Assembly: GCA_964628095.1 (NCBI GenBank)
Contig: CAZVLR010000002.1
Span: 12,795-76,794, forward strand
Source of the DNA: an uncultured Candidatus Saccharibacteria bacterium
GTDB taxonomy: Bacteria > Patescibacteriota > Minisyncoccia > Minisyncoccales > CAZVLR01
Direction: 5' to 3'
Length of the DNA stretch: 64,000 nucleotides
Shown one piece after another: positions 3,394-53,929 of the stretch. The position numbers were made by a program, and so were the translations under genes. Positions within the stretch are counted from its first letter, which is position 1. Each line of letters begins with the position of its first letter. The notes below the pieces were generated by a model, which was not told the origin of the DNA, did not search any database, and saw only the letters and a list, made by a program, of their open reading frames with translations.

Positions 3394-3739
3394 TGGTGGA
3401 GGTGAAGGGATTCGAACCCTTGTGCAAAAATATTCTCCAAGACAACGCTACAAACTTAGCCCGATTTGGTATCAGTAGAAAGTATTAATCGGACCAAATC
3501 TTTCTACTTTTTGGTCAAGATTTTGATAGTCTTTTGACCGGAAAGAGCTACCTATCTCGATTGATATAACACCAGATTTTAATTATCGAGAATTGCTAAA
3601 ACCCGATGTGCTTTAAGCGTATGCTAAAGCAGGAGCTTGAAATAAGTTGGCACTTATATCAGTTTCCGAAGGTTTTACGAGCTTTCGGAGCTCGGTTTGA
3701 TTGTTTTGGGTCGGATTTTTGTCGATTCCTGAACACCCC
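3394..3739 (-). ncRNA. ssrA: tmRNA (SsrA)
   Basis: Minus-strand 5' end is GGGGUGUUCAGGAAUCGAC and 3' end is GGGUUCGAAUCCCUUCACCUCCACCA (tRNA-like acceptor/T arm with CCA). The internal tag frame GCC AAC UUA UUU CAA GCU CCU GCU UUA GCA UAC GCU UAA encodes ANLFQAPALAYA* (3651..3613). It lies directly downstream of smpB. Confidence 0.9.
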
Positions 3740-3768
3740 CTATTAATTATTATTAAGATCTTAAGATG

Positions 3769-4218
3769 TTATTCTTTTAACGATCGCTCAATTTCCCGGT
3801 TAATCTCTTTTTTCTTAATCAGATCCCTCTTATCTTTCTTTTTCAAGCCTTTGGCCACGCCAAACTCTAGCTTAATTTTTCCTCCCTTAATATACACTTT
3901 TAAGGGTACAAAAGTCAAGCCTTGTTGGTTGGCCTTGCCAATGAGGTATTTTATCTCAGATTTCTTTAAAAGCAGCTTGCGTGATCTTTCCGGGTTATAA
4001 TCAGAGGGTGTGTTTTTAGGCTGATAGGGTGGAACTTGGCAGCCGACCAGAAAAACCTCTTCGTTTTTTAACACCACATAGCAGCCCGATAAGTTCATTC
4101 GGCCCAATTTTATCGATTTTACTTCGTGGCCCAAAAGGCTGATGCCGGCTTCAAATTTCTCTAAAATCTCGTAGTTAAAATACGCCTTTTTGTTTTCAGT
4201 GATTGGTTTAATATTCAT
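3769..4218 (-). CDS. smpB: SsrA-binding protein SmpB
   Basis: KKAYFNYEILEKFEAGISLLGHEVKS and a basic C-terminal tail typical of SmpB. Adjacent to tmRNA. Confidence 0.95.
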   Translation of the reverse strand: MNIKPITENKKAYFNYEILEKFEAGISLLGHEVKSIKLGRMNLSGCYVVLKNEEVFLVGCQVPPYQPKNTPSDYNPERSRKLLLKKSEIKYLIGKANQQGLTFVPLKVYIKGGKIKLEFGVAKGLKKKDKRDLIKKKEINREIERSLKE

Positions 4219-15986: not shown

Positions 15987-18074
15987 TTATTCCAAATGGA
16001 TTCTTTCTCCAAAATTCTTCAAGCCCTCTTTTAAAGAGGGGTGTTTTTTAAAACTAGGATCTGATTTTATCATTTCTTTAGCGGCTTCTTGGGTTTTTTC
16101 CACTAATAAAACATCAGTTAAAGAAGCCATGGTTAGGTCGGGAATGCCCCACTGTCTAATGCCATCAAGCGAGCCCGGGCCGCGAATTGCTAAATCTTTT
16201 TCAGCCAATTTGAAGCCATCTTCGGAGGATACCACAGCCTTCAATCTTTGGCTGGTTTTTGAAACCGGTGAATCGGTAAAAAGTAGGCAATAAGATTGAT
16301 GCTTTGATCTTCCTACCCGGCCCCGGAATTGGTGCAGTTGAGCCAGGCCAAATCTTTCAGCGTCTTCGATCATCATGACGGTGGCGTTAGGTATGTCAAC
16401 TCCTACTTCCACTACCGAGGTGGATACGAGAATATTGATTTCTCCCCTTTTAAAATTATTCATAACAGCTTCTTTTTCGGAAGACTTCATTTTTCCGTGA
16501 AGCATGGCAATTTTTAAGTCAGGAAAAACAACCTCTGAAAGTTTTTGGTATTCTTCCTTTACCGCTTTTACTTCGGCCCAAGAAGTAAGCCGGGCGCTTG
16601 CTTCAATGCGCGGACAGATGACAAAAATCTGATAGCCCAATTTCACCTGTTCTTTTATAAATTGATAAGCCATGGTTCTTTTTTCTGGGCCAACGATTTG
16701 GGTGAATATTTTTTTTCTACCCTGAGGTAGTTCGTTAATAATCGATAAATCCAGGTCGCCAAAAATAGTTAGAGTTAGGGTGCGGGGGATGGGGGTGGCC
16801 GTCATTGATAATAAGTGGGGAATGAATTTTTTCTGCTGGCAAAGGTGAGCCCGTTGTTGAACGCCAAAACGGTGTTGTTCATCCAGAATTACCAGGGCCA
16901 AATTATCGAATTTTATTTCTTTTTGAATTAAGGCATGAGTGCCAATGAGAATGTCCAACTCCCCGCTTTTTATTTTCTCTAACAGCTTCTTTCTGGTGCT
17001 GATTACAATTTCTTTTAGATCTTTTGAAAACAGGCGGTTATCTTTTCCGGTAACCAGGCCAATACTTACGTTAAAATCTTTTAATAATTCAAAAACCGTT
17101 TTAAAATGCTGTTTGGCCAGAATTTCGGTTGGCGCCATAAAGGCTGTTTGGTAGCCGGTTTTTACCGTATTTAAAGCAGCCATTGTGGCTACTACAGTTT
17201 TACCTGATCCCACATCTCCCTCGAGCAGCCTGTTCATGGGTCGCGGTTTTTCCAAATCTTTTAAAATCTGCCAGCCGGTTTTTTTCTGAGCATTGGTTAG
17301 TGGCCAAGGTAGACGTTTTACAAAATCTTTGATTAACTCCAGCTGAATGGGTAGAGCAATTGCCTTTTGGGCTTTAATTTTTTGCCTTTCCTTTTGTACA
17401 AAGAGCGAGATAAAAAACAGTTCTTCAAAGGAAAAGCGATCTTCCGCTTTTTTTGCCAGACCTTTGGAATCGGGAAAATGCACCTGCCAAAGCGCCTGGC
17501 TTAGGGGAATTAAGGAGAATTTTTTTAAAAATTCTGGTGGTAGCGGATCGGTTATACTGTTTTTTAAATTGGTTAAAATCGGCTTTATAATAAACCTAAG
17601 CCAGCGAGAAGATAGTCCGGCGGTTTCTGGGTACATTGGTACAATGCGGCCGGTGTGGGTTAAGTCGGCCGAAAGCTTTTCGTAAATGGGGTTGGAAAAA
17701 TAAAAATCCTTTTCTTTTTTGATTAGTTTTCCGGCCAGGCAAATGCTGTCGCCCACTTTTAAGGTCTTGGTTAAATAGGGTTGGTTAAACCAGATTATTT
17801 TTAAGATTCCGGATTTATCCTGTATTATCCCTTGGGTGAGAAACATTCTTTTTTTCCAAGTTCTGATGTTTTTAATTTCAGTTATTGCTCCTTGTATGCA
17901 TGCGGCTTCGTTAAGCTGTAACCGGGAAATAGGAACAATATTAGAAAAGTCCTCATAGCGGTGGGGAAAGTGGTAAAGCAGATCCCGGACGTTTTTAATG
18001 CCCAGCCTTTTCAACTTTTTTTGGTAAGCCGGGCCGACCCGAGAAAGTTGTTCAACCGGGGTTGAAAGCTCCAT
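15987..18074 (-). CDS. recG: ATP-dependent DNA helicase RecG
   Basis: Walker A GDVGSGKT, DEQHRFG, the N-terminal wedge region VGPAYQKKLKRLGI..DLLYHFPHRYED, and helicase motif VI QLHQFRGRVGR. Confidence 0.95.
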   Translation of the reverse strand: MELSTPVEQLSRVGPAYQKKLKRLGIKNVRDLLYHFPHRYEDFSNIVPISRLQLNEAACIQGAITEIKNIRTWKKRMFLTQGIIQDKSGILKIIWFNQPYLTKTLKVGDSICLAGKLIKKEKDFYFSNPIYEKLSADLTHTGRIVPMYPETAGLSSRWLRFIIKPILTNLKNSITDPLPPEFLKKFSLIPLSQALWQVHFPDSKGLAKKAEDRFSFEELFFISLFVQKERQKIKAQKAIALPIQLELIKDFVKRLPWPLTNAQKKTGWQILKDLEKPRPMNRLLEGDVGSGKTVVATMAALNTVKTGYQTAFMAPTEILAKQHFKTVFELLKDFNVSIGLVTGKDNRLFSKDLKEIVISTRKKLLEKIKSGELDILIGTHALIQKEIKFDNLALVILDEQHRFGVQQRAHLCQQKKFIPHLLSMTATPIPRTLTLTIFGDLDLSIINELPQGRKKIFTQIVGPEKRTMAYQFIKEQVKLGYQIFVICPRIEASARLTSWAEVKAVKEEYQKLSEVVFPDLKIAMLHGKMKSSEKEAVMNNFKRGEINILVSTSVVEVGVDIPNATVMMIEDAERFGLAQLHQFRGRVGRSKHQSYCLLFTDSPVSKTSQRLKAVVSSEDGFKLAEKDLAIRGPGSLDGIRQWGIPDLTMASLTDVLLVEKTQEAAKEMIKSDPSFKKHPSLKEGLKNFGERIHLE

Positions 18075-18075
18075 G

Positions 18076-18148
18076 TGCCCTCGGCAGGAATCGAACCTGC
18101 AGTCTCAAGGTCCGCAACCTTGCATTTTATCCATTAAACTACGAGGGC
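18076..18148 (-). tRNA. tRNA-Arg (anticodon GCG)
   Basis: Acceptor GCCCTCG/CGAGGGC, anticodon stem CAAGG/CCTTG, loop TTGCGGA, T arm GCAGG-TTCGATT-CCTGC, discriminator A. CCA not encoded. 73 nt. Confidence 0.85.
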
Positions 18149-18159
18149 TGGTATTGTTA

Positions 18160-18188
18160 ATTCTAAAATAAAATTAAGCTTAATTCAA
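18160..18188 (-). promoter_or_regulatory. sigma70-like promoter for tRNA-Arg(GCG)/recG
   Basis: Minus strand reads TTGAAT (18188-18183), 17 nt, TAGAAT (18165-18160). The tRNA 5' end lies 11 nt downstream. Confidence 0.5.
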
Positions 18189-18231: not shown

Positions 18232-18322
18232 GGAGGAGTGCGGCGAATGGTAAGCCAGCAGTTTGCTAAACTGTACCCGTCTAAAAAGCGGGTTGTGGGT
18301 TCGACTCCCACCTCCTCCGCCA
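18232..18322 (+). tRNA. tRNA-Ser (anticodon GCT)
   Basis: Acceptor GGAGGAG/CTCCTCC, anticodon stem GCAGT/ACTGT with loop TTGCTAA, long variable arm, T arm GTGGG-TTCGACT-CCCAC, discriminator G. CCA encoded. Confidence 0.9.
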
Positions 18323-18344
18323 GCCGCTAATTTATTAAATAAAT

Positions 18345-18432
18345 GGCGGGGTCGGATAACGGCTATTCCACCGGTCTTGAAAACCGGAGCTCCTTCGGGG
18401 GCTTGTGAGTTCGAATCTCACCCCCGCCGCCA
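18345..18432 (+). tRNA. tRNA-Ser (anticodon TGA)
   Basis: Acceptor GGCGGGG/CCCCGCC, anticodon stem CCGGT/ACCGG with loop CTTGAAA, long variable arm (GCTCCTTCGGGGGC), T arm GTGAG-TTCGAAT-CTCAC. CCA encoded. Confidence 0.9.
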
Positions 18433-22155: not shown

Positions 22156-22232
22156 GCCCTCGTAGCTCAACTGGATAGAGCAGCTCCGTCCTAAGGAGAA
22201 GGTTAGGGGTTCAACTCCTCTCGAGGGCACCA
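22156..22232 (+). tRNA. tRNA-Arg (anticodon CCT)
   Basis: Acceptor GCCCTCG/CGAGGGC, D arm GCTC-AACTGGATA-GAGC, anticodon loop GTCCTAA, T arm AGGGG-TTCAACT-CCTCT. CCA encoded. Confidence 0.9.
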
Positions 22233-22240
22233 AAAATTTT

Positions 22241-23920
22241 ATGAAGAGAAAAACCGGACTTAAAATATTAATCTTTTTTCTGGCAGTTTTATTTTTAACT
22301 GTTTTATTTTTATTAAGCCCCATTTTAAGCCGAGACCGAATGGTTTGGGGTTTAAAAGTGGTCAATGTTAATATTGGCGGGCTTTCATCTTTTGAAGCTA
22401 AAGCGGTTTTAGAAAAAGAAACGGCCAAGATTTACCAAAAAGATGTAATTTTAGAGTATTCAAAAGAAGACAGAACGTGGCAAGTAACAGTTTTAGACAT
22501 GGGTTTTAATATAGATATTGATAATACAATTAACAACGCTTTAAAAATCGGCCGGGAGGGTGTATTTAAAAGTTTTTCAGAACAAGCTTCGGCTTTATTC
22601 TTTGGAAAAAACCTGCCCCTTTCCTTTAATTTTAACAGCAAGGAGTTTGATGATTTTGGTAAAATAAACTTTTTTGAAATAGAAAATTATAAGCAGGAAC
22701 CGGAGCTCAAATACGATGTTAGTAGTAGCGATTTTATAATTCAGCCAGGGAAAACCGGCCTCATGGTTGATAAAGAAAAATTAAAAGACGATATTTTAAG
22801 TCAAATCAATCAGGGGTTTTTTAGCAAAGTGGAGCTGGCTTTAAAAAAAGATCAGCCGCTTTCGCAAATGGCCGCTGAAAAAACGCGTCAAAAAGCCTTG
22901 TTGATTTTAAATTCAGCTCCTTATTATTTAACCGATCAAGATAAAAAATGGCCTTTAAATAAAGAAACAATTTTATCCTGGTTTTTCTTTTTAGCAAAAG
23001 ATGATAATTTAGTTATTGAATTAAAAGAAAAGGAAGTCCAGAGCCTTTTGGAGGGTTTAGTGCCAGAGGTTAATCAGCCTTCAACCAATGCTGTTTTGGG
23101 CCAAAAAGACGGCCAGATGATTATTGTAAAAGAGGGCCAGAATAAAAAAGAGTTGGATTTAAAAAGCAGCTTTGAAAGCATCCAAAGAGAAATTTTAAAC
23201 GATAATCACATTGTTAATAAAGAAATTGCTTTACAGATAAAAACAGCGCCGCCAGAGGTTAATTCTAATAGTATTCAAGAATTAGGATTTACCTCTTTTT
23301 TGGGCCAGGGTTCGGCCGATTATTCCGGTTCGCCTTCAGGCCGTATTTTTAATATTAAACTGGGCGCTTCTAGAATAAGCGGAATTATTGTAAGGCCCAA
23401 CGAGGAGTTTTCTTTTAACCAGACTATCGGCGATATTAATGCTACTTCTGGTTATATGCAGGCTATTGTTCTAAAAAACAACAAAAAGGTAGTTGAATAC
23501 GGCGGGGGCGTGTGCCAGGTTTCCACCACTTTATTCCGGGCGGCCATAAACGCCGGCTTAAAGATTGTCGAGCGCCACGCCCACGCCATACCGATTGCTT
23601 ATTACGTACCCACTGGTTTTGACGCTACGGTTTATCCCGGGCAGGTAGATTTAAGGTTTCTAAACGATACGAAAAACAATATTTATATTCAAAGCTATAC
23701 CAAAGCCAGTAAGCTTTATTTTGAAATTTACGGTTCAAACGACGGCCGGGAAATTAAAATTTTGGGCCCGAAAGTTTTAGCGGTTAAAGAAGACGGTTCA
23801 ATGAAAACGCTTTTAACCCAAGAAGTCTACATACTGGGCAAATTATTGAGAAGGGATCAGTTTTACTCCATTTATAAATCGCCCGCTTCTTATACCTTGG
23901 AAGAAAATCCTTTAGATTAA
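22241..23920 (+). CDS. VanW-family cell-wall associated protein
   Basis: N-terminal TM anchor and a C-terminal VanW core GGGVCQVSTTLFRAAINAGL...ERHAH. The ATG lies 8 nt after the tRNA CCA end. Confidence 0.85.
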   Translation: MKRKTGLKILIFFLAVLFLTVLFLLSPILSRDRMVWGLKVVNVNIGGLSSFEAKAVLEKETAKIYQKDVILEYSKEDRTWQVTVLDMGFNIDIDNTINNALKIGREGVFKSFSEQASALFFGKNLPLSFNFNSKEFDDFGKINFFEIENYKQEPELKYDVSSSDFIIQPGKTGLMVDKEKLKDDILSQINQGFFSKVELALKKDQPLSQMAAEKTRQKALLILNSAPYYLTDQDKKWPLNKETILSWFFFLAKDDNLVIELKEKEVQSLLEGLVPEVNQPSTNAVLGQKDGQMIIVKEGQNKKELDLKSSFESIQREILNDNHIVNKEIALQIKTAPPEVNSNSIQELGFTSFLGQGSADYSGSPSGRIFNIKLGASRISGIIVRPNEEFSFNQTIGDINATSGYMQAIVLKNNKKVVEYGGGVCQVSTTLFRAAINAGLKIVERHAHAIPIAYYVPTGFDATVYPGQVDLRFLNDTKNNIYIQSYTKASKLYFEIYGSNDGREIKILGPKVLAVKEDGSMKTLLTQEVYILGKLLRRDQFYSIYKSPASYTLEENPLD

Positions 23921-24600: not shown

Positions 24601-24672
24601 AGCGGGTGAAGGGAATTGAACCCTCTTCTCATCCTTGGCAAGGATGTATAATAGCCGGTATACGACACCCGC
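24601..24672 (-). tRNA. tRNA-Gly (anticodon GCC)
   Basis: Acceptor GCGGGTG/CACCCGC, anticodon stem CATCC/GGATG with loop TTGCCAA, T arm GAGGG-TTCAATT-CCCTT, discriminator T. Confidence 0.9.
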
Positions 24673-24686
24673 TTACTTTAAATATG

Positions 24687-24760
24687 TGCCGCGGGCCAGA
24701 CTTGCACTGGCGACCTCTTCTTTTTCAGAGAAGCGCATCTACTACCTGAGCTACCGCGGC
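24687..24760 (-). tRNA. tRNA-Phe (anticodon GAA), non-canonical T-loop and irregular D-stem
   Basis: Acceptor GCCGCGG/CCGCGGC, anticodon stem CTTCT/AGAAG with loop CTGAAAA, T arm GCCAG-TGCAAGT-CTGGC. The D region GCTCAGGTAGTAGATGC pairs only if one T is bulged. Confidence 0.75.
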
Positions 24761-24770
24761 TGGGTTTTAT

Positions 24771-24842
24771 TGGGCGGTGAAGGATTTGAACCTACGGCCT
24801 TCTCGGTGTAAACGAGACGCTCTGCCGCTGAGCTAACCGCCC
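24771..24842 (-). tRNA. tRNA-Val (anticodon TAC)
   Basis: Acceptor GGGCGGT/ACCGCCC, D arm GCTC-AGCGGCA-GAGC, anticodon stem TCTCG/CGAGA with loop TTTACAC, T arm GTAGG-TTCAAAT-CCTTC. Confidence 0.9.
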
Positions 24843-24843
24843 A

Positions 24844-24929
24844 TGGTGCGGACGGTGGGAGTCGAACCCACATGCCATTTCTGGCACAGAGCCTCAGTCT
24901 GTTGCGTATACCGGTTCCGCCACGTCCGC
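24844..24929 (-). tRNA. tRNA-Leu (anticodon GAG)
   Basis: Acceptor GCGGACG/CGTCCGC, anticodon stem ACAGA/TCTGT with loop CTGAGGC, long variable arm, T arm GTGGG-TTCGACT-CCCAC. CCA encoded. The 5' end touches the rplS stop codon. Confidence 0.9.
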
Positions 24930-25340
24930 TTATTGCGCGCTTTCTACAGTGGGCGCCTCCACTGCTTCCGGCTCCTCCTGAACAACAGCTTGCGCGAATT
25001 CCTGCTTTTTCAAACGGGCTTTTTTGCCCCGAGTCTGCCTTAAATAGTAAAGCTTGGCTCTTCTTACCTTGCTTCTTTTTACTATTTCAATTTTGGAGAT
25101 TAAGGGCGAGTAGAGCGGATATATTTTTTCAACGCCCACGCCTGAAATCACCTTTCTTACGGTAATAGTCGAGCCGATTTCTTTTCCGTGCTTTCGGGCA
25201 ATCACCAGGCCTTCAAAAACTTGGACTCTTTGCTTTTCCCCCTCTTTTATCTTTTGGTGCACGCGTACGGTATCGCCCGGCCTGATATCGGGCATGTTTT
25301 TAATATATGGCTTTAAAATGTTATCGGTTTTTGTAATCAT
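24930..25340 (-). CDS. rplS: 50S ribosomal protein L19 (with acidic C-terminal extension)
   Basis: [34 protein letters not shown]... is the L19 core. Its ATG overlaps the upstream gene's TGA (ATGA). Confidence 0.95.
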
Positions 25341-26035
25341 ATGTTTTTGATAGCATTTTTTAATTCTGTTGGCAAGTCTGAGCGGAATTCTTTTTCCTCT
25401 CCTTTTGGGGTGGCTATTTTAAGGGAAAAGGCGTGCAGGAACTGGCGGGTTAGGCCTTCGGGCTCCGGCTGGTTTTTAAAGCCGTAAAGCGGGTCTTTAA
25501 CAATGGGGTGGCCCAAATAGGCCAAATGGGTACGGATTTGGTGCTTTCTACCGGTTTTGGGCAAAACCTCAAGCAGAGTGTAATCTTTGAATTTTTCAAC
25601 TGTTTTATACTCGGTAATCGCCTCTCTTTTGTTTTCCGCCTTGGGTTGGCCGGCCAGATATACTTTTTGTTTCCGCCGGTCGCTCGGGGCGCGGCCGATT
25701 AGGGTTTCAATTCTACCCGAATCGTTCTTTACTTGTCCCACCACCAAAGCCAGATATTTTTTTTCAACTTTGTTATCTTGAAACTGCTTTTGGAAAAATT
25801 CCAAAGTTTGGCTGTTTTTTGCCACCAGCAAGATGCCAGAAGTGTCTTTGTCCAAGCGGTGAATAATTCCGTATCTTGGGGCTTTTCCCGCATTTTTTAT
25901 TTCAGGGAATTTTTCTATTAGGTAATCGATTAAGGTTTTTTCTGAAATTGCTTCGTTTTCCGGGAAAACCGTAAGGCCGGCTGGCTTATTAACAACCAAA
26001 AAATCCTGATCTTGGTATAGGATGTTTAATTCCAT
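25337..26035 (-). CDS. RluA-family pseudouridine synthase (RluD-like, no S4 domain)
   Basis: LVVNKPAGL and the catalytic [15 protein letters not shown], plus KxYxALV. Confidence 0.9.
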
Positions 26036-26036
26036 G

Positions 26037-26110
26037 TGGGCGGTATAGGACTTGAACCTATAACCTTTCGCACGTCAAGCGAACGCTCTAGCCAATTGAG
26101 CTAACCGCCC
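26037..26110 (-). tRNA. tRNA-Val (anticodon GAC)
   Basis: Acceptor GGGCGGT/ACCGCCC, anticodon stem TTCGC/GCGAA with loop TTGACGT, T arm ATAGG-TTCAAGT-CCTAT, discriminator A at 26037. CCA not encoded. Confidence 0.9.
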
Positions 26111-26117
26111 CCTCTGA

Positions 26118-26190
26118 TGCGCCTGGATGGGATCGAACCATCGACCCCCACTTTATAAGAGTGGTGCTCTAACCACTGAGCTACAGGCGC
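26118..26190 (-). tRNA. tRNA-Ile (anticodon TAT)
   Basis: Acceptor GCGCCTG/CAGGCGC, D arm GCTC-AGTGGTTA-GAGC, anticodon stem CCACT/AGTGG with loop CTTATAA (34-36 = TAT), T arm GATGG-TTCGATC-CCATC. Confidence 0.8.
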
Positions 26191-26205
26191 TTTAAATTTA
26201 AAAAC

Positions 26206-28071
26206 TTAAAGCTTGGCCTTTTTTGGTGCGGATGATTCTTTTTCCGATTTGAACTGTGTTTTTATTAATTTCTCAAATTCTTCCCTTTCAATGGTTTCCT
26301 TTTCTATTAAAGTGTGGGCCACCTTGTGCAGCAGCTCTTTTTTCTTAAGCAGTATTTTCTCGGCCGACTTCTGGGCTTCTTCAATAAATTTAGCCACTTC
26401 TTTGTCGATTTTAGCCGCTACCTCTTCTGAATAATTCCTTTGGTCGGAAATCTCCCGGCCCAAGAATACCATTTCTTCCTTGTCGCCAAAAGCAATCGGG
26501 CCCAAGGACGACATGCCGTATTCTTTTACCAGTTTTCGGGCTAATTCCGAAGCTTTTCCTAGATCGTTGGAAGCGCCGGTAGTCAGCTCGTTGAATTTAA
26601 TTTTCTCGGCCGTGTAGCCGCCCAATAAAGTGGCTAATTCGGCTAAGAACTCGGTTTTGGTTGTAATTCTTCTTTCTTCGGTTGGCATTTTTAAAGTATA
26701 ACCTGCGGCCATGCCCCGGGCGATAATGGAAATTTTCCTGATAGGTTCGGCTCCGGGGGAGAAGGTAGATACCAACGCGTGGCCGGCTTCGTGAAAAGCG
26801 GCAATCTCTTTTTCCCTTTTGGAAAGCACGTGGCTTTTTCTTTCCGGTCCCAGCAGGGTTTTATCGATTGATTCCAGCATTTCGTCTTGGAACACCTGGG
26901 TTTTGTTTCTTCTGGCTGCTAATATCGCCGCTTCGTTTACTAAATTAGCCAAATCCGCGCCTGAAAAGCCCGGCGTTCTTTCGGCGATCTCCCGCAAATT
27001 AATATTTAAAGATAAGGGTTTGCCCTTGCAGTGGATTTTCATAATTTCTTCTCGGTCGTTTACATCGGGTAAGTCCAGCACTACCCGGCGGTCGAATCTT
27101 CCCGGTCTTAACAGGGCCGGATCTAAAACGTCGGGCCGGTTGGTAGCGGCAAAAATCAAAACCGTTGATTCTTTTTCAAAGCCGTCCATTTCCACCAAGA
27201 TTTGGTTTAAAGTTTGTTCTCTTTCGTCGTGTCCACCGCCAATGCCCGTGCCTCTAACTCGGCCAATGGCATCCAGTTCGTCAATAAAAATAATGCTGGG
27301 CTGGTGTTTTTTGGCCGTATTGAATAGGTCTCGAGTTCTGGCCGCACCTACGCCTACAAATAGCTCTACTAATTCCGAACCGGCAGTAGAAAAGAAAGGT
27401 ACGCCGGCTTCTGCAGCTACAGCTCGGGCCAGTAAGGTCTTACCCGTGCCCGGGGGGCCCATTAAGATAACACCCTTGGGGATTCGGGCGCCCATTTCAA
27501 GAAACTTTTTGGGGTTTTTAAGAAAGTCCACCACTTCCGCCAGCTCTTCTTTGGCTTCTTTTAAGCCAGCCACGTCTTTGAAAGTAATTTTATCTTTGGA
27601 ATGGCCTTCGGCGCCAAAAAGCCGGGCTCGGGCTTTGGTAAAATCAAAAGCCTGCATGGTGCCGGTTTTGGCCTGCCTAAAAATCATAAAAAAGAAAACA
27701 ATGAATACCAGTAAGGGAAGTACAAAAATTAAAATCGGACCTAGCCAGGTGGTCCAACCACTTTCGTTTTTAGTTTCAATTTGTACTGCTTTTAATTTGT
27801 CTTGGCTTACGCCGTAGTTAATAAGCGATTCTGATAAAGAGCTTTCGGTTTCTTTTCGGGCATTGACCTTGGAATCATCCTGATAGGTGATCTGCATGTC
27901 GTTTCCCGAAACCGTAATGCTTTTAATCTTGCCCTGGTTTATTTCTTCAACCAGTTGCGTCAGCGACAGCACCTTTTTATCTTCAAAAGGAGAGGAAACC
28001 AAAGTAAAAATCGCTGAGATTGCCAGGAAAACCAGAATTACAATTATGAAATTTTTTAATAACGCGTTCAT
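26206..28071 (-). CDS. ftsH: ATP-dependent zinc metalloprotease FtsH
   Basis: Two N-terminal TM segments, AAA+ Walker [16 protein letters not shown], Walker [12 protein letters not shown], and the zinc motif HEAGHAL. Confidence 0.95.
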
Positions 28072-28078
28072 TTGAGTA

Positions 28079-28111
28079 ATTATAATATATCACAGATTTA
28101 TAAAATTTCAA
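28079..28111 (-). promoter_or_regulatory. promoter region abutting the ftsH start
   Basis: Minus strand reads TTGAAA (28111-28106) ... TGTGATATATTATAAT. TATAAT (28084-28079) is followed by 7 nt and then ATG 28071. No SD. Confidence 0.4.
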
Positions 28112-29974: not shown

Positions 29975-30625
29975 ATGCAGATTATTTGGCACGGACAATC
30001 TTTTTTTGAAATTATCGCCGGTCGCGCAAAGAACGGCCAGGTGGTTTTGGTTATAGATCCTTTTTCAGAGGAGATCGGTTTAAGATTCCCCAAGGTGTCA
30101 GCCGATATCGTGGCTGTTACCAGCGATTTGCCCGATCATAACAACGCAAAAGCGGTGGCGGGAAACTCTAATGAAGCCCCGTTTTTAATTTCGGGCCCGG
30201 GCGAATACGAAGTAAAAGAAATTTACATCCAGGGGATTTTGAGCAATAAAAACAATGGCAAGGAAAACACGATTTTTACCATTAAAGCTGAGGATTTAAA
30301 AATCTGCCACTTGGGCGATTTGGCCCAAAAAGAGTTGACTTCTGAACAGGTAGAGCAGATTGGCGACGTTGATGTTTTAATGATTCCCGTGGGCGGGAAC
30401 AATACCATCGATGGCAAGGAGGCTTTAAAAATCATGTCCCAAATAGAGCCCAAAATTATCATACCCATGCATTACATGCTGCCCAAATTAAAAACGAAAT
30501 TGGAAGACGCTGATAAGTTTTTAAAATCCGTAGGCGTGAAAAAAGTTGAGCCCTTGCCCAAGCTGACTATTAAGAAAAAAGACATATCCGAGGAAGAAGT
30601 AAAGATTATTATTTTAAAACCTTAA
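29975..30625 (+). CDS. MBL-fold metal-dependent hydrolase (UPF0173-like)
   Basis: MQIIWHGQSFFEI N-terminus, the ...SDLPDHNN, HLGDL and IPMHY pattern, and about 216 aa. Confidence 0.75.
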   Translation: MQIIWHGQSFFEIIAGRAKNGQVVLVIDPFSEEIGLRFPKVSADIVAVTSDLPDHNNAKAVAGNSNEAPFLISGPGEYEVKEIYIQGILSNKNNGKENTIFTIKAEDLKICHLGDLAQKELTSEQVEQIGDVDVLMIPVGGNNTIDGKEALKIMSQIEPKIIIPMHYMLPKLKTKLEDADKFLKSVGVKKVEPLPKLTIKKKDISEEEVKIIILKP

Positions 30626-34004: not shown

Positions 34005-34352
34005 ATGAAAAAGATACTTTTTTACGCTTTCATTCTGACTTTTTTACTGGCCCTGCCTTTGCCTTTTTTAAATCAGGCTTTTGGGGCTCAGATTACAATT
34101 CCTAATCCTTTAAATTATGACTCTGTTGAAGAGTTAATTAAGGCGATCATTGATTTTCTGTGGACCCTGGCCTTGGTTTTAGTTCCTCTTTTGGTGGTAA
34201 TTGCGGGCTTTTTGTTTATTACCGCCGGCGGGGATCCCCAGAAGGTAACTAACGCCAAAAGAATGATCACTTATATTATTGTCGGTTTTTTGGTTATTGC
34301 CTCGGCCAAAGGCCTAATTACTTTAATTCAAACAGTAATTAATAAAAAGTAA
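34005..34352 (+). CDS. VirB2/TrbC-like (T4SS pilin-like) small membrane protein, copy 1 (most divergent)
   Basis: Signal peptide (..AFGA/Q), two TM helices joined by the loop ITAGGDPQKVTNAKR. 115 aa. Confidence 0.6.
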   Translation: MKKILFYAFILTFLLALPLPFLNQAFGAQITIPNPLNYDSVEELIKAIIDFLWTLALVLVPLLVVIAGFLFITAGGDPQKVTNAKRMITYIIVGFLVIASAKGLITLIQTVINKK

Positions 34353-34363
34353 ATAACAATTAT

Positions 34364-34708
34364 ATGATAAAAAAATATTATTTGTCGTTAATATTAATAC
34401 TTTTAGCCATACCGTCGGTTTATTCGGCACAAAACAATGCAGGATACAACAACGTAGCTCCGCCCAACATAAGTTCACAGGGCATGTGGAATCTATTAGA
34501 TAAGATTATCAGTTACCTCTTCGGCATCTTTTTAGCGTTTGCTGTTATCTTTTTTATCATCGCTGCTTTTAACTTTATCACCGCTCAGGGCGAGCCCGAA
34601 AAAGTAAAAAGAGCCCGAGACTTTGTTCTTTGGGCGTTAATCGGTGTGCTGGTGGCTTTTGTTTCAAGGGGCTTAATCGAATTTATTAAGGGCCTAGTGG
34701 GCTCTTAA
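34364..34708 (+). CDS. VirB2/TrbC-like small membrane protein, copy 2
   Basis: Signal peptide (..VYSA/Q), TM1, FNFITAQGEPEKVKRARDFVLWALIG, TM2. Confidence 0.6.
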   Translation: MIKKYYLSLILILLAIPSVYSAQNNAGYNNVAPPNISSQGMWNLLDKIISYLFGIFLAFAVIFFIIAAFNFITAQGEPEKVKRARDFVLWALIGVLVAFVSRGLIEFIKGLVGS

Positions 34709-34740
34709 AAGTTTATTAATATTAAATAATCTTAATAAAA

Positions 34741-35055
34741 ATGAAAAAACATTTATTCTTAATTGCTTTATTATTGATATCGCCTTTAATGGTGGCAGCG
34801 GCAGAGACAATCCCAGATGTTGATATTTTTAAACTACTTACCAATATTACCAATTATCTTTTTGGTATATTACTGGCTACAGCGGTAATTTTCTTTATTA
34901 TAGCCGGGTTTAATTTTGTCACTGCTCAGGGCGATCCTGAAAAGGTAAAAAGAGCCCGGGATTTTGTTTTGTGGGCCATAATTGGTTTATTGGTAGCCTT
35001 TGTTTCAGTGGGCCTGGTTAACTTTATTAAAGCATTAGCAGAAAGTAGTAAATAA
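34741..35055 (+). CDS. VirB2/TrbC-like small membrane protein, copy 3
   Basis: Signal peptide (..VAAA/E), TM1, FNFVTAQGDPEKVKRARDFVLWAIIG, TM2. Confidence 0.6.
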   Translation: MKKHLFLIALLLISPLMVAAAETIPDVDIFKLLTNITNYLFGILLATAVIFFIIAGFNFVTAQGDPEKVKRARDFVLWAIIGLLVAFVSVGLVNFIKALAESSK

Positions 35056-35099
35056 CAAAAATAAAAAGGTCGAAACTTATACATTAAAGGAATAAAAAT

Positions 35100-35444
35100 A
35101 TGAAAAAAATATTACCATATTTAACGAGTATTTTGGTGGCACTGCCCATTATTGTTTCGGCACAAAATGCCTATACTCCAACTTATCCGCCCAAGCCCGA
35201 TATTTGGCTTTTACTTAATACGATTATTGCCTGGTTGTTTGGAATTTTACTTATCGTTGCTGTTATCTTTTTGATTATTGCCGGCTTTTTCTTTATTACC
35301 GCCCAGGGAGATCCGGATAGAGTTAAAAAAGCGAGAGACTTTGTATTGTGGGCAATTATTGGTATTTTGGTAGCTTTTGCCGCTCGCGGTTTGGTTTGGT
35401 TTGTGAATCAATTAGTTAGTACTAGCAGTATTCCGGGCGCTTAG
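35100..35444 (+). CDS. VirB2/TrbC-like small membrane protein, copy 4
   Basis: Signal peptide (..IVSA/Q), TM1, FFFITAQGDPDRVKKARDFVLWAIIG, TM2. Confidence 0.6.
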   Translation: MKKILPYLTSILVALPIIVSAQNAYTPTYPPKPDIWLLLNTIIAWLFGILLIVAVIFLIIAGFFFITAQGDPDRVKKARDFVLWAIIGILVAFAARGLVWFVNQLVSTSSIPGA

Positions 35445-39073: not shown

Positions 39074-39081
39074 AATAATTA

Positions 39082-39090
39082 ATTATATCA
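39082..39090 (-). promoter_or_regulatory. extended -10 box abutting the valS start
   Basis: Minus strand reads TTTTTGTGA-TATAAT (TATAAT at 39087-39082), then TAATTATT (8 nt) and ATG 39073. No SD. Confidence 0.45.
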
Positions 39091-40132: not shown

Positions 40133-40141
40133 ATTATAGCA
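40133..40141 (-). promoter_or_regulatory. extended -10 box abutting the tsaD start
   Basis: Minus strand reads TGC-TATAAT (TATAAT at 40138-40133), then CAAAAAT (7 nt) and ATG 40125. No SD. Confidence 0.45.
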
Positions 40142-41226: not shown

Positions 41227-41255
41227 TTGAAATAAGCATTTTTTTAATATATAAT
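41227..41255 (+). promoter_or_regulatory. sigma70-like promoter abutting the recO start (leaderless layout)
   Basis: TTGAAA (41227-41232), 17 nt, TATAAT (41250-41255), then TTGCCCT (7 nt) and ATG 41263. No SD. Confidence 0.6.
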
Positions 41256-53396: not shown

Positions 53397-53398
53397 CC

Positions 53399-53929
53399 GT
53401 GGAAGAAAAACAAATATCCGTTGCGATTATTATCGGTAGCGAATATGATTTTCCGCTTGTCGAGCAATCAGGCATGCTTGGAGTTCTTGACCAAATGAAG
53501 ATTGCCTGGGAGCTGTCTGTTATTTCAGCGGACCGAAACCCCCAAGAGCTTCATGATTATTGCATTGTTGCCAAGCGGCGGGGAGTCGTAGTCTTTATCG
53601 GGGCCGCAGGCATGTCGGCTAAGTTACCTGCTGCTATTGCTGTTTATACCGGCTATAAAACTCCGGTGATCGGCGTGGCTCTGCCTAGCGAAGATTTTCC
53701 CAATAGCCTCGATGCTTTATTTACCATTGTGCGCCAGCCGGGCGGTTGTCCGGTTATCTGTTCGGGCATTGGCAAGGCCGGTTTAAAAAATGCCGCTTTG
53801 ATTGCCTGCCAGATACTTTGTACTGGAAATGACGAACGCTCGTGCAAAACTTACTCAGATTTCTCGGCATATCTTAAAAGAAATCAAAAAACCCCACAAA
53901 TCCCATTAAAGGAAGGAGAAGCCTCATGA
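53399..53929 (+). CDS. PurE-like protein (AIR carboxylase/N5-CAIR mutase fold) with substituted conserved histidines
   Basis: By eye it aligns with E. coli PurE as I recall it: VAIIIGSEYD, FIGAAGMSAKLP, PVIGVAL, GIGKAGLKNAALIACQIL. SADRNP replaces SAHRTP and AAGMSAKLP replaces GAGGAAHLP. GTG start with SD AGGAGGG. Confidence 0.7.
   Translation: MEEKQISVAIIIGSEYDFPLVEQSGMLGVLDQMKIAWELSVISADRNPQELHDYCIVAKRRGVVVFIGAAGMSAKLPAAIAVYTGYKTPVIGVALPSEDFPNSLDALFTIVRQPGGCPVICSGIGKAGLKNAALIACQILCTGNDERSCKTYSDFSAYLKRNQKTPQIPLKEGEAS

What the first reader, a model, noticed from the sequence alone, without database searches (positions are those of the whole stretch)
18072..18148. recG start codon sits 1 nt after the discriminator base of tRNA-Arg(GCG)
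On the minus strand the sequence reads acceptor 3' strand CGAGGGC (18083-18077), discriminator A (18076), a single C (18075), then ATG (18074-18072) of recG.

The N-terminus MELSTPVEQLSRVGPAYQKKLKRLGI matches where RecG proteins normally begin, and there is no nearby downstream Met. There is no room for an SD or a promoter. The nearest promoter-like element (TTGAAT-17-TAGAAT) lies upstream of the tRNA.

The simplest reading is one transcript in which tRNA 3' processing creates the 5' end of an essentially leaderless recG mRNA. CCA is not encoded, so this would be an RNase Z-type cut after the discriminator. That layout resembles mitochondrial tRNA punctuation and is unusual for a bacterial chromosome. 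The same A-C-AUG junction recurs at 26035-26037.
Basis: partly seen in the sequence, partly recalled or inferred. Interest (0 to 1): 0.6.

Follow-up and report, generated by a model that had tools for sequence, protein, structure and literature searches.

The report
tRNA gene abutting recG start codon
In this ultra-small groundwater bacterium (Patescibacteria) a working tRNA gene ends one base before the start codon of the DNA-repair gene recG, a layout that recurs in many relatives and at other genes. It implies that cutting out the tRNA makes a leaderless messenger RNA, as happens in mitochondria.

Summary
tRNA-Arg(GCG) lies on the minus strand at 18148-18076. It is followed by one C (18075) and then the ATG of recG (18074-18072). 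Five independent assemblies carry the same junction.

The ATG is the only possible start and is the conserved RecG N-terminus. There is no Shine-Dalgarno (SD) sequence, promoter or terminator between the tRNA and the gene. The only promoter-like site is upstream of the tRNA, and it is conserved in relatives.

The layout recurs. In 81 orthologous Patescibacteria loci, a co-oriented tRNA ends 2 nt or less before recG in 18 (15 distinct sequences). The remaining spacers range from 3 nt to over 200 nt. None of the spacers up to 24 nt that were read carries an SD.

A second identical junction joins tRNA-Val(GAC) to rluA at 26037-26033. It sits inside a conserved ftsH-tRNA-tRNA-rluA-rplS-tRNAx4 block.

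The genome is SD-poor and carries TATAAT-N7/8-ATG promoters, which fits frequent leaderless translation.

The best reading is a bacterial analogue of mitochondrial tRNA punctuation. No RNA data exist, and the nuclease and exact cut site are unknown. Near-universal C74 hints at a cut after C74 rather than after the discriminator. The spacer length changes between close relatives.

Verdict: a new variant of a known kind, of moderate to high interest.

The parts
18183..18188 (-). -35-like hexamer TTGAAT of the promoter upstream of tRNA-Arg
   Evidence: Consensus scan finds TTGAAT-17-TAGAAT at 18188..18160. The same position carries TTGAtt in most relatives.
18160..18165 (-). -10-like hexamer TAGAAT, 11 nt upstream of tRNA position +1. 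The expected transcription start would leave a 5' leader of about 4-5 nt for RNase P to remove.
   Evidence: Relatives have TATGATAAT at the aligned position. The transcription start is inferred, not mapped.
18076..18148 (-). tRNA-Arg(GCG): acceptor GCCCTCG/CGAGGGC, discriminator A at 18076, CCA not encoded
   Evidence: Rfam RF00005 scores 71.2 bits and ARAGORN agrees. The acceptor pairs in 7 of 7 positions. Across 15 orthologous junction sequences the cloverleaf shows compensatory changes in 17 of 21 pairs.
18075..18075 (-). Single C between the discriminator and the ATG, at tRNA position 74 (the first C of CCA)
   Evidence: C74 is present in 155 of 168 tRNA genes of the clade. It is the spacer base in 17 of 17 junctions listed with a 1-nt spacer in the recG loci and window. 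Exceptions: G in L136/L137 by the alignment, and T in L166.
18072..18074 (-). recG start codon ATG
   Evidence: It is the first start codon after the in-frame TGA at 18107-18105. M1 is invariant, and 100 of 120 homologues start at this position.
15987..18074 (-). recG coding sequence (695 aa)
   Evidence: ORF. Pfam finds RecG_wedge, DEAD, Helicase_C and RecG_dom3_C. Homologues are 62-67% identical over 100% of the length.
26037..26110 (-). tRNA-Val(GAC), the second case of the same junction. Discriminator A at 26037, then C at 26036.
   Evidence: Rfam scores 70.3 bits. Also.
25337..26035 (-). RluA-family pseudouridine synthase gene whose ATG (26035-26033) follows tRNA-Val by one C
   Evidence: Pfam PseudoU_synth_2 and NCBIfam rluA_subfam. 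Several homologue gene calls run back into a translated tRNA (P0141, P0201, P0224). Synteny and tight junctions are seen in relatives.
24601..28071 (-). Punctuated block: ftsH (28071-26206), 15 nt, tRNA-Ile(UAU), 7 nt, tRNA-Val(GAC), 1 nt, rluA, 4-nt overlap, rplS (25340-24930), 0 nt, tRNA-Leu(GAG)+CCA, 1 nt, tRNA-Val(UAC), 9 nt, tRNA-Phe, 13 nt, tRNA-Gly
   Evidence: TATAAT ends 7 nt before the ftsH ATG. No minus-strand promoter-like site lies between the ftsH start and the rluA start. The order is conserved in 8 of 8 relatives.
22156..22243 (+). Third short junction: tRNA-Arg(CCU) with encoded CCA (22230-22232), an 8-nt spacer AAAATTTT, then the ATG (22241) of a VanW-domain gene. No SD.

Best explanation
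tRNA-Arg(GCG) and recG form one transcription unit. It is driven by the promoter upstream of the tRNA at about 18188-18160.

RNase P removes a short 5' leader. An endonucleolytic cut at the tRNA 3' end then separates the two products. The cut falls either after discriminator A73 or after C74.

- One product is a tRNA that the CCA-adding enzyme completes.
- The other is a recG mRNA that starts with C-AUG or exactly with AUG.

That mRNA is translated as a leaderless mRNA without a Shine-Dalgarno sequence. tRNA-Val(GAC)/rluA works the same way inside the ftsH-tRNA-rluA-rplS-tRNA block, so tRNAs punctuate polycistronic transcripts as they do in mitochondria.

The 1-nt spacing is the lower limit reached by deletion-driven compaction of a very dense genome. 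It is tolerated because this lineage already initiates most translation without SD and often at the 5' end.

**Shown:** the anatomy, the identity of the start codon, the functional state of the tRNA, recurrence and synteny, the absence of SD and of an internal promoter, and the SD-poor, leaderless-type context.

**Inferred:** co-transcription, the endonucleolytic cut and its position, the nuclease, and leaderless translation.
For: **Anatomy and start codon:**

**Not an artefact:** five assemblies carry the junction.

**Promoter placement**
- The only promoter-like site on the minus strand lies upstream of the tRNA.
- It aligns with a conserved TTGAtt-N17-TATGATAAT in relatives.
- There is no room for a terminator between tRNA and gene.

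**The tRNA is under structural selection:** 17 of 21 pairs covary and none is systematically broken. CGU and CGC codons occur 176 times in the window's genes, so its 3' end has to be matured.

**Recurrence**
- 18 of 81 recG loci have a spacer of 2 nt or less. A further 14 have 3-24 nt, AT-rich and without SD.
- Tight junctions occur with diverged tRNA sequences and RecG proteins a median 58% identical to each other.
- The same junction occurs at tRNA-Val/rluA in the window and in L170, L172 and L166. L167 has CC|ATG.
- It also occurs at tRNA-Ser(UGA) in L140 and tRNA-Ser(GCU) in L138, each followed by an ORF of at least 80 codons.

**Translation context**
- Only 6 of 60 other genes have an SD core.
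- Four perfect TATAAT boxes end 7-8 nt before an ATG, at ftsH, a class I aaRS, tsaD and recO. About 0.1 would be expected by chance, by my estimate from base composition.
- recG relatives with longer spacers or no adjacent tRNA often have a -10-like box close to the ATG, e.g. L085, L126, L127, L151.

**Published precedent**
- Leaderless translation tolerates 0-1 nt. One extra nucleotide cost about 2-fold in Caulobacter (PMC8459731).
- tRNA-like elements are used to define exact RNA ends through RNase P and tRNase Z in a prokaryote (PMC4946936).
Against: - There are no transcript data of any kind: no 5'-end mapping and no proteomics.
- No RNase Z, RNase J or other RNase gene was found in the 64 kb or in the fetched loci. 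The nuclease is therefore unidentified, and the rest of the genome could not be searched.
- The spacing is evolutionarily labile: 1 versus 7 nt at 94% RecG identity, and 1 versus 18 nt at 89%. The exact junction is therefore tolerated rather than demonstrably selected.
- A processed mRNA would carry a 5'-monophosphate. That could make it unstable and poorly translated.
- Promoter scans are consensus matches only. Hits in this AT-rich DNA are about as frequent as in shuffled sequence (8 found versus 5.3 expected).
Confidence: 0.68

Rival explanations
1. Mutually exclusive maturation. The tRNA and recG are co-transcribed, but the organism has no endonuclease that cuts precisely at the tRNA 3' end. 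The tRNA 3' end is made by a downstream cut inside recG followed by 3'-5' trimming, which destroys the message. RecG would then come only from a minority of molecules that are cut by chance at the junction or left unprocessed. The 1-nt spacing would be a nearly neutral product of deletion bias.
For: - No RNase Z-like gene was seen in the window or loci.
- Spacer length flips between close relatives, which suggests weak constraint.
- The genome is extremely compact: 91% coding, with a median same-strand spacer of 13 nt.
- RecG is probably needed only in small amounts (general knowledge).
Against: - Spacers pile up at exactly 1-2 nt and none is shorter. No ATG overlaps the discriminator or the acceptor stem in about 90 loci. 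This points to a hard functional boundary at position 73/74, as expected if both products must survive the same cut.
- The same junction occurs for rluA, which is followed by the ribosomal protein gene rplS in the same block. A ribosomal protein cannot depend on rare accidents.
- CC|ATG junctions (L094, L138, L167) preserve the AUG only if the cut lies before A76.
Confidence: 0.15
2. recG has its own start of transcription. A promoter embedded in the tRNA gene fires at or next to the A of the ATG and gives a primary (5'-PPP) leaderless mRNA independent of tRNA processing.
For: The organism clearly has leaderless-type promoters elsewhere, with TATAAT 7-8 nt before an ATG. recG relatives without an adjacent tRNA seem to use such promoters.
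Against: - The -12 to -7 region is CCGAGG, part of the G+C-rich acceptor 3' strand. In relatives it is TAGGGG, CGGGCG, TGGGGG or CAGGGA. None resembles a -10 box.
- The scan finds no promoter-like site inside the tRNA on the minus strand.
- tRNA constraints leave no freedom to evolve one.
Confidence: 0.07
3. Translation starts on the unprocessed or only 5'-processed tRNA-mRNA chimera. The G-rich acceptor 3' strand (GAGGG in the window, 4 nt before the ATG) acts as a Shine-Dalgarno sequence.
For: A GAGG core lies 4 nt upstream of the ATG in the window.
Against: - The GAGG is locked in a 7-bp, G+C-rich acceptor helix.
- A 4-nt spacing is shorter than usual.
- Only 3 of the 15 aligned tight-junction sequences (window, L084, L147) have GAGG.
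- The tRNA-Val/rluA junctions (ACCGCCCAC|ATG, GTGCCCAT|ATG) have no purine run at all.
- A folded tRNA 2 nt from the P-site codon should clash with the ribosome (inference).
Confidence: 0.05
4. The annotated ATG is not the real start, and RecG begins at a downstream codon that has room for a leader.
For: An in-frame TTG exists at codon 21 (read).
Against: - M1 is invariant, and L3, T5 and I7 are at least 90% conserved.
- 100 of 120 homologues start at the same position.
- The Pfam RecG_wedge match begins at residue 10.
- A start at codon 21 would remove the conserved VGPxYQKKL segment, and no SD precedes it.
Confidence: 0.02

Closest known systems
Mitochondrial tRNA punctuation (Ojala, Montoya and Attardi 1981; cited via PMC10941002)
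   Same: tRNA genes abut protein genes with 0 to a few nt between them. Excision of the tRNA by RNase P and RNase Z is what creates the mRNA ends. The resulting mRNAs have no or almost no 5' UTR and are translated without SD. CCA is added after transcription. The window even has a stop codon flush with a tRNA 5' end (rplS/tRNA-Leu).
   Different: Here the chromosome is bacterial, with ordinary sigma-70-like promoters, many transcription units and canonical cloverleaf tRNAs. Only some genes are punctuated and spacing varies between relatives. No overlaps were seen. The processing enzymes are unidentified and nothing has been shown at the RNA level.
Bacterial tRNA-mRNA co-transcripts such as the E. 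coli thrU-tyrU-glyT-thrT-tufB operon (own knowledge)
   Same: A protein gene lies downstream of tRNA genes in one transcript and is separated from them by processing.
   Different: tufB keeps a spacer of roughly 100 nt with its own SD. The mRNA is leadered, and its translation does not depend on where the tRNA is cut.
Primary leaderless mRNAs of bacteria (Mycobacterium, Deinococcus, Caulobacter; PMC4633059, PMC4007540, PMC8459731)
   Same: An AUG at or within 1 nt of the 5' end, no SD, and a strong preference for AUG. This genome shows the typical TATAAT-N7-ATG signature at other genes.
   Different: Those 5' ends are made by transcription initiation and carry 5'-PPP. Here the end would be made by RNA processing and carry 5'-P.
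tRNA-like 't-elements' that define RNA ends in plant mitochondria (own knowledge) and in Haloferax volcanii (PMC4946936)
   Same: RNase P and tRNase Z act on a tRNA-shaped structure to give exact ends on a neighbouring non-tRNA RNA. Locus L170 has an acceptor plus T-arm minihelix flush with the rluA ATG.
   Different: In the window the element is a genuine, needed tRNA, not a mimic.
Endonucleolytic cleavage between C74 and C75 of tRNA precursors in Propionibacterium acnes, which lacks RNase Z (PMC3848588)
   Same: It is a bacterial precedent for a 3' cut that leaves C74 on the tRNA. At this junction such a cut would leave exactly 5'-AUG on the mRNA. It fits the near-universal C74 in this clade's tRNA genes.
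   Different: It was observed in an actinobacterium, at tRNAs with full CCA, and was not linked to mRNA 5' ends. The nuclease is unknown there too.
MazF-generated leaderless mRNAs in E. coli (Vesper et al. 2011, cited in PMC3848588; its generality has been disputed, own knowledge)
   Same: Leaderless mRNA is made after transcription by a cut at ACA next to an AUG. The junction here reads ACAUG.
   Different: MazF cutting is stress-induced toxin activity that gives 5'-OH ends. There is no toxin context here, and the ACA arises simply from A73-C74-A(UG).

Membership tests
tRNA-punctuated polycistronic transcript (mitochondrial type) | tRNA gene directly flanks the coding sequence, with 0 to a few nt between them | tested here: met
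   1 nt at recG and at rluA. 0 nt between the rplS stop and tRNA-Leu. 8 nt after the CCA at the VanW gene.
tRNA-punctuated polycistronic transcript (mitochondrial type) | tRNA and mRNA are made as one transcript from an upstream promoter | tested here: inconclusive
   A promoter-like site lies only upstream of the tRNA and is conserved in relatives. There is no promoter, terminator or space in between. No RNA data exist.
tRNA-punctuated polycistronic transcript (mitochondrial type) | mRNA ends are produced by RNase P and RNase Z cleavage at the tRNA | not testable with these tools
   No end mapping is available. No RNase gene is in the window or loci.
Leaderless mRNA translation | AUG start codon, no SD, and start region not sequestered in structure | tested here: met
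   ATG is found at all 19 junctions listed with a spacer of 2 nt or less in the recG loci and window. SD is absent; GAGG inside the acceptor stem occurs in only 3 of 15 aligned sequences. No conserved structure covers the AUG.
Leaderless mRNA translation | mRNA 5' end lies at the start codon or within about 1 nt of it | not testable with these tools
   Inferred from the anatomy only.
Functional bacterial tRNA (tRNA-Arg, anticodon GCG) | Cloverleaf with a 7-bp acceptor, a Rfam score above threshold, and covariation among orthologues | tested here: met
   71.2 bits against a gathering score of 29. The acceptor pairs 7 of 7. 17 of 21 pairs show compensatory change.
RNase Z substrate of the Bacillus subtilis type (CCA-less precursor) | No encoded CCA | tested here: met
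   Only C74 is encoded; positions 74-76 read C-A-U.
RNase Z substrate of the Bacillus subtilis type (CCA-less precursor) | U-rich positions 74-76 that activate the enzyme (own knowledge of Pellegrini et al. 2012), and an rnz gene in the genome | tested here: inconclusive
   The clade's trailers are C74-rich (155 of 168). CAA, CAT and CAG are commonest after CCA, so they are not U-rich. Whether rnz is present could not be checked.
SD-led canonical initiation | An accessible purine-rich SD 5-10 nt upstream of the start | tested here: not met
RecG helicase | Wedge domain plus superfamily 2 helicase core plus RecG C-terminal domain, full length from the conserved N-terminus | tested here: met

The most novel reading that the evidence does not exclude
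In this Patescibacteria lineage, tRNA excision is a general, clade-wide way of making mRNA 5' and 3' ends. This would be true bacterial tRNA punctuation.

The 3' cut would fall after C74 rather than after the discriminator, and would be made by a nuclease other than classical RNase Z. It would leave tRNA-C74 for the CCA-adding enzyme to complete, and an mRNA beginning exactly with 5'-P-AUG that 70S ribosomes translate.

Near-universal retention of C74 in otherwise CCA-less tRNA genes would be the genomic footprint of that cut.
Probability: 0.25. Interest if true: 0.75.

Novelty: new variant of a known kind. Interest (0 to 1): 0.6.

Why it matters
If confirmed at the RNA level, the mitochondrial solution is not an organellar oddity. 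In that solution tRNAs act as punctuation marks whose excision creates leaderless mRNAs. It would instead arise independently in bacteria with streamlined genomes that have largely given up Shine-Dalgarno initiation.

**Testable consequences**
- It would give a natural bacterial system in which 5'-monophosphate, processing-derived leaderless mRNAs must be translated. That bears on how 70S or 30S ribosomes recognise 5'-terminal AUGs.
- It would tie the output of housekeeping genes (recG, rluA, rplS) to tRNA promoters.
- It would point to an unidentified tRNA 3' endonuclease activity in Candidate Phyla Radiation (CPR) bacteria.

**Practical consequence**
Gene callers mis-extend these ORFs into the tRNA. 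Several database RecG and RluA entries begin with translated T-arm sequence. Annotation pipelines that forbid contact between a tRNA and a coding sequence will also mis-place starts.

Tried and rejected
**Searches that did not yield what was needed**
- RNase Z or RNase J-type proteins (HxHxDH motif) in the window and in about 90 related loci: none.
- Pfam on all 61 window genes: no ribonuclease and no CCA-adding enzyme. The one metallo-beta-lactamase-fold protein (29975-30625, Lactamase_B_3) lacks the catalytic His motif and scores far below the NCBIfam cut-off. I did not treat it as a candidate.
Only L001, L011 and L017 were informative. A second scan with an N-terminal alignment in metagenomes gave the useful set.
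- Literature searches for bacterial or CPR tRNA punctuation, CPR leaderless mRNAs, or RNase Z in CPR found nothing specific. Two searches failed on term syntax.

**Analyses that were weak or wrong**
- Clustering loci at 90% identity to count independent events was unreliable, because near-identical RecG proteins carry different spacers. I therefore report raw loci and distinct sequences.
- The neighbour-joining tree on 130 aa is too noisy to count gains and losses.
- The SD-distance column was miscomputed and was redone.

**Readings rejected**
- Assembly artefact.
- Alternative genetic code or a downstream start.
- SD within the acceptor stem.
- A promoter inside the tRNA.
- A MazF-type ACA cut, because there is no toxin context and the ACA is explained by A73-C74-A.
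Full report
**1. The observation**

On the minus strand the window reads ...GGTTCGATTCCTGCCGAGGGC-A-C-ATGGAGCTTTCA....

- Rfam's tRNA model matches 18148-18076 at 71.2 bits.
- ARAGORN calls tRNA-Arg with anticodon GCG at 18148-18075. The extra base is C74, because ARAGORN includes any matched prefix of CCA.
- The acceptor stem GCCCTCG/CGAGGGC pairs in 7 of 7 positions. The discriminator is A at 18076. A single C follows at 18075, and the ATG is at 18074-18072.

The ATG opens a 695-codon ORF, 15987-18074. Its product has the full RecG architecture: RecG_wedge from residue 10, DEAD, Helicase_C and RecG_dom3_C. Reading upstream in frame, a TGA lies at 18107-18105 inside the tRNA, with no ATG, GTG or TTG in between. 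The ATG is therefore the first possible start.

Of the 120 best homologues (62-67% identical over full length), 100 begin at exactly this position, 34 residues before the HFPxRY motif. The conserved N-terminus is M-x-L-S/T-T-P-I/V-E.

Several database entries are longer only because the gene caller ran back into the tRNA. Their N-termini are translated T-arm and acceptor sequence, for example ...CRFDSCRAH-MNLSTP and ...VVGSTPTRRA-MNLSTP. That was the first sign that the tRNA-recG contact is common.

Five independent assemblies of this organism carry the identical junction. The second junction is tRNA-Val(GAC) 26110-26037, C at 26036, ATG at 26035 of an RluA-family gene.

**2. The organism and its genome style**

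Names attached to the homologues place the window in Patescibacteria, also called the Candidate Phyla Radiation (CPR). The names include Paceibacteria-type groups such as Nealsonbacteria and Staskawiczbacteria. The samples are groundwater metagenomes.

- The window is 40% G+C and about 91% coding. The median spacer between same-strand genes is 13 nt, and 22 of 50 spacers are 10 nt or less.
- Only 6 of the 60 other genes have an SD core at a usable distance. Three of them are the adjacent purB, purE and purC genes.
- Most starts are preceded by A/T-rich sequence.
- Four genes have a perfect TATAAT ending 7-8 nt before the ATG: ftsH, a class I aminoacyl-tRNA synthetase at 37007-39073, tsaD and recO. 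This is the geometry of primary leaderless transcripts. I estimate about 0.1 such matches by chance from base composition.

"No room for an SD" is therefore not remarkable in this organism. What is remarkable is that there is no leader at all and that a stable tRNA helix ends 2 nt before the start codon.

**3. Comparative evidence for tRNA-Arg/recG**

A metagenome scan with an alignment of the RecG N-terminus returned 80 loci whose N-terminal segment is 47-65% identical to the window's. With the window this makes 81 loci.

Most of them have a co-oriented tRNA upstream of recG, nearly always tRNA-Arg(GCG). Often the same divergent pair of tRNA-Ser genes sits beyond it, as in the window (18232-18432).

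| Spacer after the discriminator | Loci |
|---|---|
| 2 nt or less | 18 (15 distinct sequences) |
| 3-9 nt | 7 |
| 10-24 nt | 7 |
| 25-250 nt | 22 |
| none on the fragment, or more than 250 nt | 27 |

- A spacer of exactly 1 nt is by far the commonest single value among all tRNA-to-ORF distances: 17 cases, against at most 4 for any other value.
- In the tight junctions the base is almost always C. L094 has CC|ATG, so an encoded CCA shares its A with the ATG. L136 and L137 have G, by the alignment.
- No locus has the ATG overlapping the discriminator or the acceptor stem.
- Spacers of 3-24 nt are A/T-rich and carry no SD, for example CAAAAAT, CTACGAT, CAGATAATTTTAAAATCA.
- Some long spacers hold a terminator-like hairpin followed by a -10-like box close to the ATG, for example L085.

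An alignment of 15 tight-junction sequences shows three things:
- a conserved TTGAtt-N17-TATGATAAT promoter about 12-14 nt upstream of the tRNA;
- a tRNA whose four stems vary by compensatory change, in 17 of 21 pairs;
- no conserved structure over the ATG.

The tRNA is thus a working gene in all these lineages. CGU and CGC codons occur 176 times in the window's genes, so its 3' end must be matured correctly.

**4. The junction is labile**

Close relatives differ:
- L115 (1 nt) and L116 (7 nt) have RecG proteins 94% identical over the first 300 residues.
- L089 (1 nt) and L093 (18 nt) are 89% identical.
- L100 (1 nt), L118 (7 nt) and L112 (174 nt) are 84-85% identical.

In L115 and L116 the tRNA-Arg sequences themselves differ strongly, which suggests recombination at the junction. 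L128 keeps CC-ATG-AAT-TTA-TCT-ACT-CCA (MNLSTP) directly after the tRNA, but the intact recG frame restarts 132 nt later. That looks like an insertion into the first codons.

The 1-nt state is therefore reached or kept repeatedly, among RecG proteins that are a median 58% identical to each other. It is not frozen. I read the pile-up at 1-2 nt, with nothing shorter, as a boundary. Deletions compact the spacer until the last position at which both tRNA and mRNA still work.

**5. The second junction and the wider pattern**

The window's minus strand from 28071 to 24601 runs as follows:

ftsH, 15 nt, tRNA-Ile(UAU), 7 nt, tRNA-Val(GAC), 1 nt, rluA, 4-nt overlap, rplS, 0 nt, tRNA-Leu(GAG)+CCA, 1 nt, tRNA-Val(UAC), 9 nt, tRNA-Phe, 13 nt, tRNA-Gly.

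- ftsH has a leaderless-type promoter.
- No minus-strand promoter-like site lies between the ftsH start and the rluA start.
- The rplS stop codon is flush with the tRNA-Leu 5' end.

Eight RluA homologues on long contigs all show the same gene order. The spacers between tRNA-Val and rluA are:

| Locus | Spacer |
|---|---|
| L170, L172 | 1 nt (C) |
| L166 | 1 nt (T) |
| L167 | 2 nt (CC) |
| L169 | 4 nt |
| L171 | 17 nt |
| L168, L173 | another gene inserted |

Several RluA database entries again start with translated tRNA. Elsewhere in the fetched loci, tRNA-Ser(UGA) is followed by C|ATG in L140 and tRNA-Ser(GCU) by CC|ATG in L138, each opening an ORF of at least 80 codons. In the window, tRNA-Arg(CCU)-CCA is followed after 8 nt (AAAATTTT) by a VanW-domain gene.

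The phenomenon is therefore a property of the clade, not of recG.

**6. How it most likely works**

*Shown*
- One promoter-like site upstream.
- A needed tRNA.
- No space for any signal between tRNA and gene.
- A conserved true start.
- An SD-poor genome with leaderless-type promoters.

*Inferred*
- The tRNA and recG are co-transcribed.
- RNase P trims a short 5' leader.
- An endonuclease cuts at the tRNA 3' end.
- The CCA-adding enzyme completes the tRNA.
- The downstream fragment, starting C-AUG or AUG with a 5'-monophosphate, is translated as a leaderless mRNA.

A ribosome is unlikely to initiate on the uncut precursor. The E-site side of the start codon would be occupied by a 7-bp G+C-rich helix of a folded tRNA.

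A 0-1 nt leader is compatible with leaderless initiation. In Caulobacter each added 5' nucleotide costs about 2-fold (PMC8459731).

**7. Where is the cut?**

I could not find any RNase Z or RNase J-type protein in the window or in the related loci. Pfam annotation of all 61 window genes found no ribonuclease. The rest of the genome is out of reach, so the enzyme is unknown.

One observation bears on the position of the cut. 155 of 168 tRNA genes in the window plus the metagenome loci have C at position 74, in DNA that is 19% C. Only 37 encode full CCA. CAA, CAT and CAG are the commonest other trailers. In the window itself, 12 of 15 tRNAs have C74 and 5 have CCA (corrected with the Rfam ends).

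Retention of C74 without CCA suggests that C74 stays on the matured tRNA, so the cut would fall after C74. At these junctions that would leave an exact 5'-AUG.

There is a published bacterial precedent. dRNA-seq in Propionibacterium acnes, which lacks RNase Z, found endonucleolytic cuts "always between the Cs" of CCA (PMC3848588). CC|ATG junctions likewise require a cut before A76 if the AUG is to survive. This is suggestive, not proof. G and T occur at position 74 in two tight junctions.

**8. Rivals**

- **Mutually exclusive maturation.** This is my main rival (confidence 0.15). Imprecise cuts plus exonucleolytic trimming would mean each precursor yields either a tRNA or an mRNA, and the spacing would be neutral compaction. 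Against it stand the sharp boundary at 1-2 nt and the presence of rplS in the rluA block.
- **A promoter inside the tRNA.** The -10 region is G+C-rich acceptor sequence in every lineage.
- **An SD inside the acceptor stem.** Only 3 of 15 aligned sequences have GAGG. The tRNA-Val junctions have no purine run, and the sequence is base-paired.
- **A downstream start.** Contradicted by N-terminal conservation.

**9. Comparison with what is known**

- The layout works like mitochondrial tRNA punctuation. It shares abutting tRNAs, excision-defined mRNA ends, leaderless mRNAs and post-transcriptional CCA addition.
- It differs from classical bacterial tRNA-mRNA operons such as tufB, where the mRNA keeps a long leader with an SD (own knowledge).
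- It differs from the known bacterial leaderless mRNAs because the 5' end would be processed, not primary.
- tRNA-like elements are already used to set exact RNA ends via RNase P and tRNase Z in Haloferax (PMC4946936).

Eleven completed full-text searches found no description of tRNA punctuation, or of processing-derived leaderless mRNAs next to tRNAs, in bacteria or CPR. The library is incomplete, so this is absence of evidence only.

**10. Verdict**

The logic holds and gains strong comparative backing. There is no RNA evidence, the nuclease and cut position are open, and the 1-nt spacing is frequent but labile rather than fixed.
- I rate it a new variant of a known kind, with interest 0.6.

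Noticed in passing
window, all 15 tRNA genes; L081-L160: Position 74 (the first base after the discriminator) is C in 12 of 15 window tRNAs and in 155 of 168 tRNAs of the clade's loci. Full CCA is encoded in only 5 of 15 and 37 of 168. 'CA' at positions 74-75 is the commonest trailer. The DNA is 19% C. This is an unexplained signature of tRNA 3' maturation.
   Followed up: partly
window 26118-26190 (-) and 18076-18148 (-): The isoacceptors present are tRNA-Ile(UAU) and tRNA-Arg(GCG), not the usual bacterial Ile(CAU, lysidine) and Arg(ACG, inosine). Both recur in all relatives examined. This suggests decoding without TilS or TadA. The rest of the genome was not checked.
   Followed up: no
L170 1140-1500: Nested or partial tRNA copies. 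In order: a 5' part of tRNA-Ile, a complete tRNA-Ile and a 3' part; then an acceptor plus D-arm piece, a complete tRNA-Val(GAC), and an acceptor plus T-arm minihelix. The minihelix abuts the rluA ATG with the same CCGCCCAC|ATG junction. This could be a tRNA-in-tRNA insertion, a partial duplication or an assembly chimera.
   Followed up: partly
L113 about 1495-1700: A tRNA-Arg(GCG) is followed 128 nt later by a second copy of its 3' end (gactcctgccgagcgcac), next to the start of a downstream ORF unrelated to recG. The intervening sequence is rich in inverted repeats and looks like an insertion into or beside the tRNA.
   Followed up: no
window 24930-24932 / 24929: The stop codon of rplS (L19) is flush with the first base of tRNA-Leu(GAG). 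RNase P cleavage would therefore leave an mRNA ending exactly at its stop codon. In relatives this spacer is 12-48 nt, or a LAGLIDADG-like ORF is inserted.
   Followed up: partly
window 52074-54870 (+): purB, purE and purC have strong SD sequences (AGGAGGAAGG, TAGGAGGG, AAGGAAGGAGAAG) in a genome where about 90% of genes have none. This may mark recently acquired genes.
   Followed up: no
window 28079-28084, 39081-39086, 40133-40138, 41250-41255: Perfect TATAAT boxes end 7-8 nt before the ATG of ftsH, a class I aaRS, tsaD and recO. This is the signature of primary leaderless transcripts.
   Followed up: partly
L115 versus L116; L084: RecG is 94% identical between L115 and L116, but the upstream tRNA-Arg(GCG) genes differ throughout and the spacers are 1 and 7 nt. 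This suggests recombination at the tRNA/recG boundary. In L084 a long-variable-arm tRNA called Leu(UAG) occupies the tRNA-Arg position, with the same acceptor stem as the window's tRNA-Arg and the same C|ATG junction.
   Followed up: no
L128 556-690: Directly after tRNA-Arg comes CC-ATG-AAT-TTA-TCT-ACT-CCA (MNLSTP, the recG N-terminus). The frame then breaks, and an intact recG restarts 132 nt downstream (MNENSAIEEIPRIGP). This appears to be an insertion into the first codons, with a new start recruited.
   Followed up: no
database proteins P0007, P0017, P0019, P0025, P0028, P0091 (RecG); P0141, P0201, P0224, P0185 (RluA): Public gene calls extend these ORFs upstream into the tRNA, giving spurious N-termini such as ...GSTPTRRA-M and ...RFDSCRAH-M. 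This is a systematic annotation error caused by the junction.
   Followed up: yes
window 29975-30625 (+): A 216-aa metallo-beta-lactamase-fold protein (Pfam Lactamase_B_3) lacks the HxHxDH motif. It scores far below the NCBIfam cut-off for 'metal-dependent hydrolase'. It lies divergent from the ribosomal protein S1 gene. Function unknown, and not an evident RNase Z.
   Followed up: partly
window 34005-35444 (+); 3394-4218 (-): Four tandem small genes encode type IV secretion pilin (T4SS_pilin/TrbC) paralogues. Separately, tmRNA (tag ANLFQAPALAYA) lies next to smpB.
   Followed up: no
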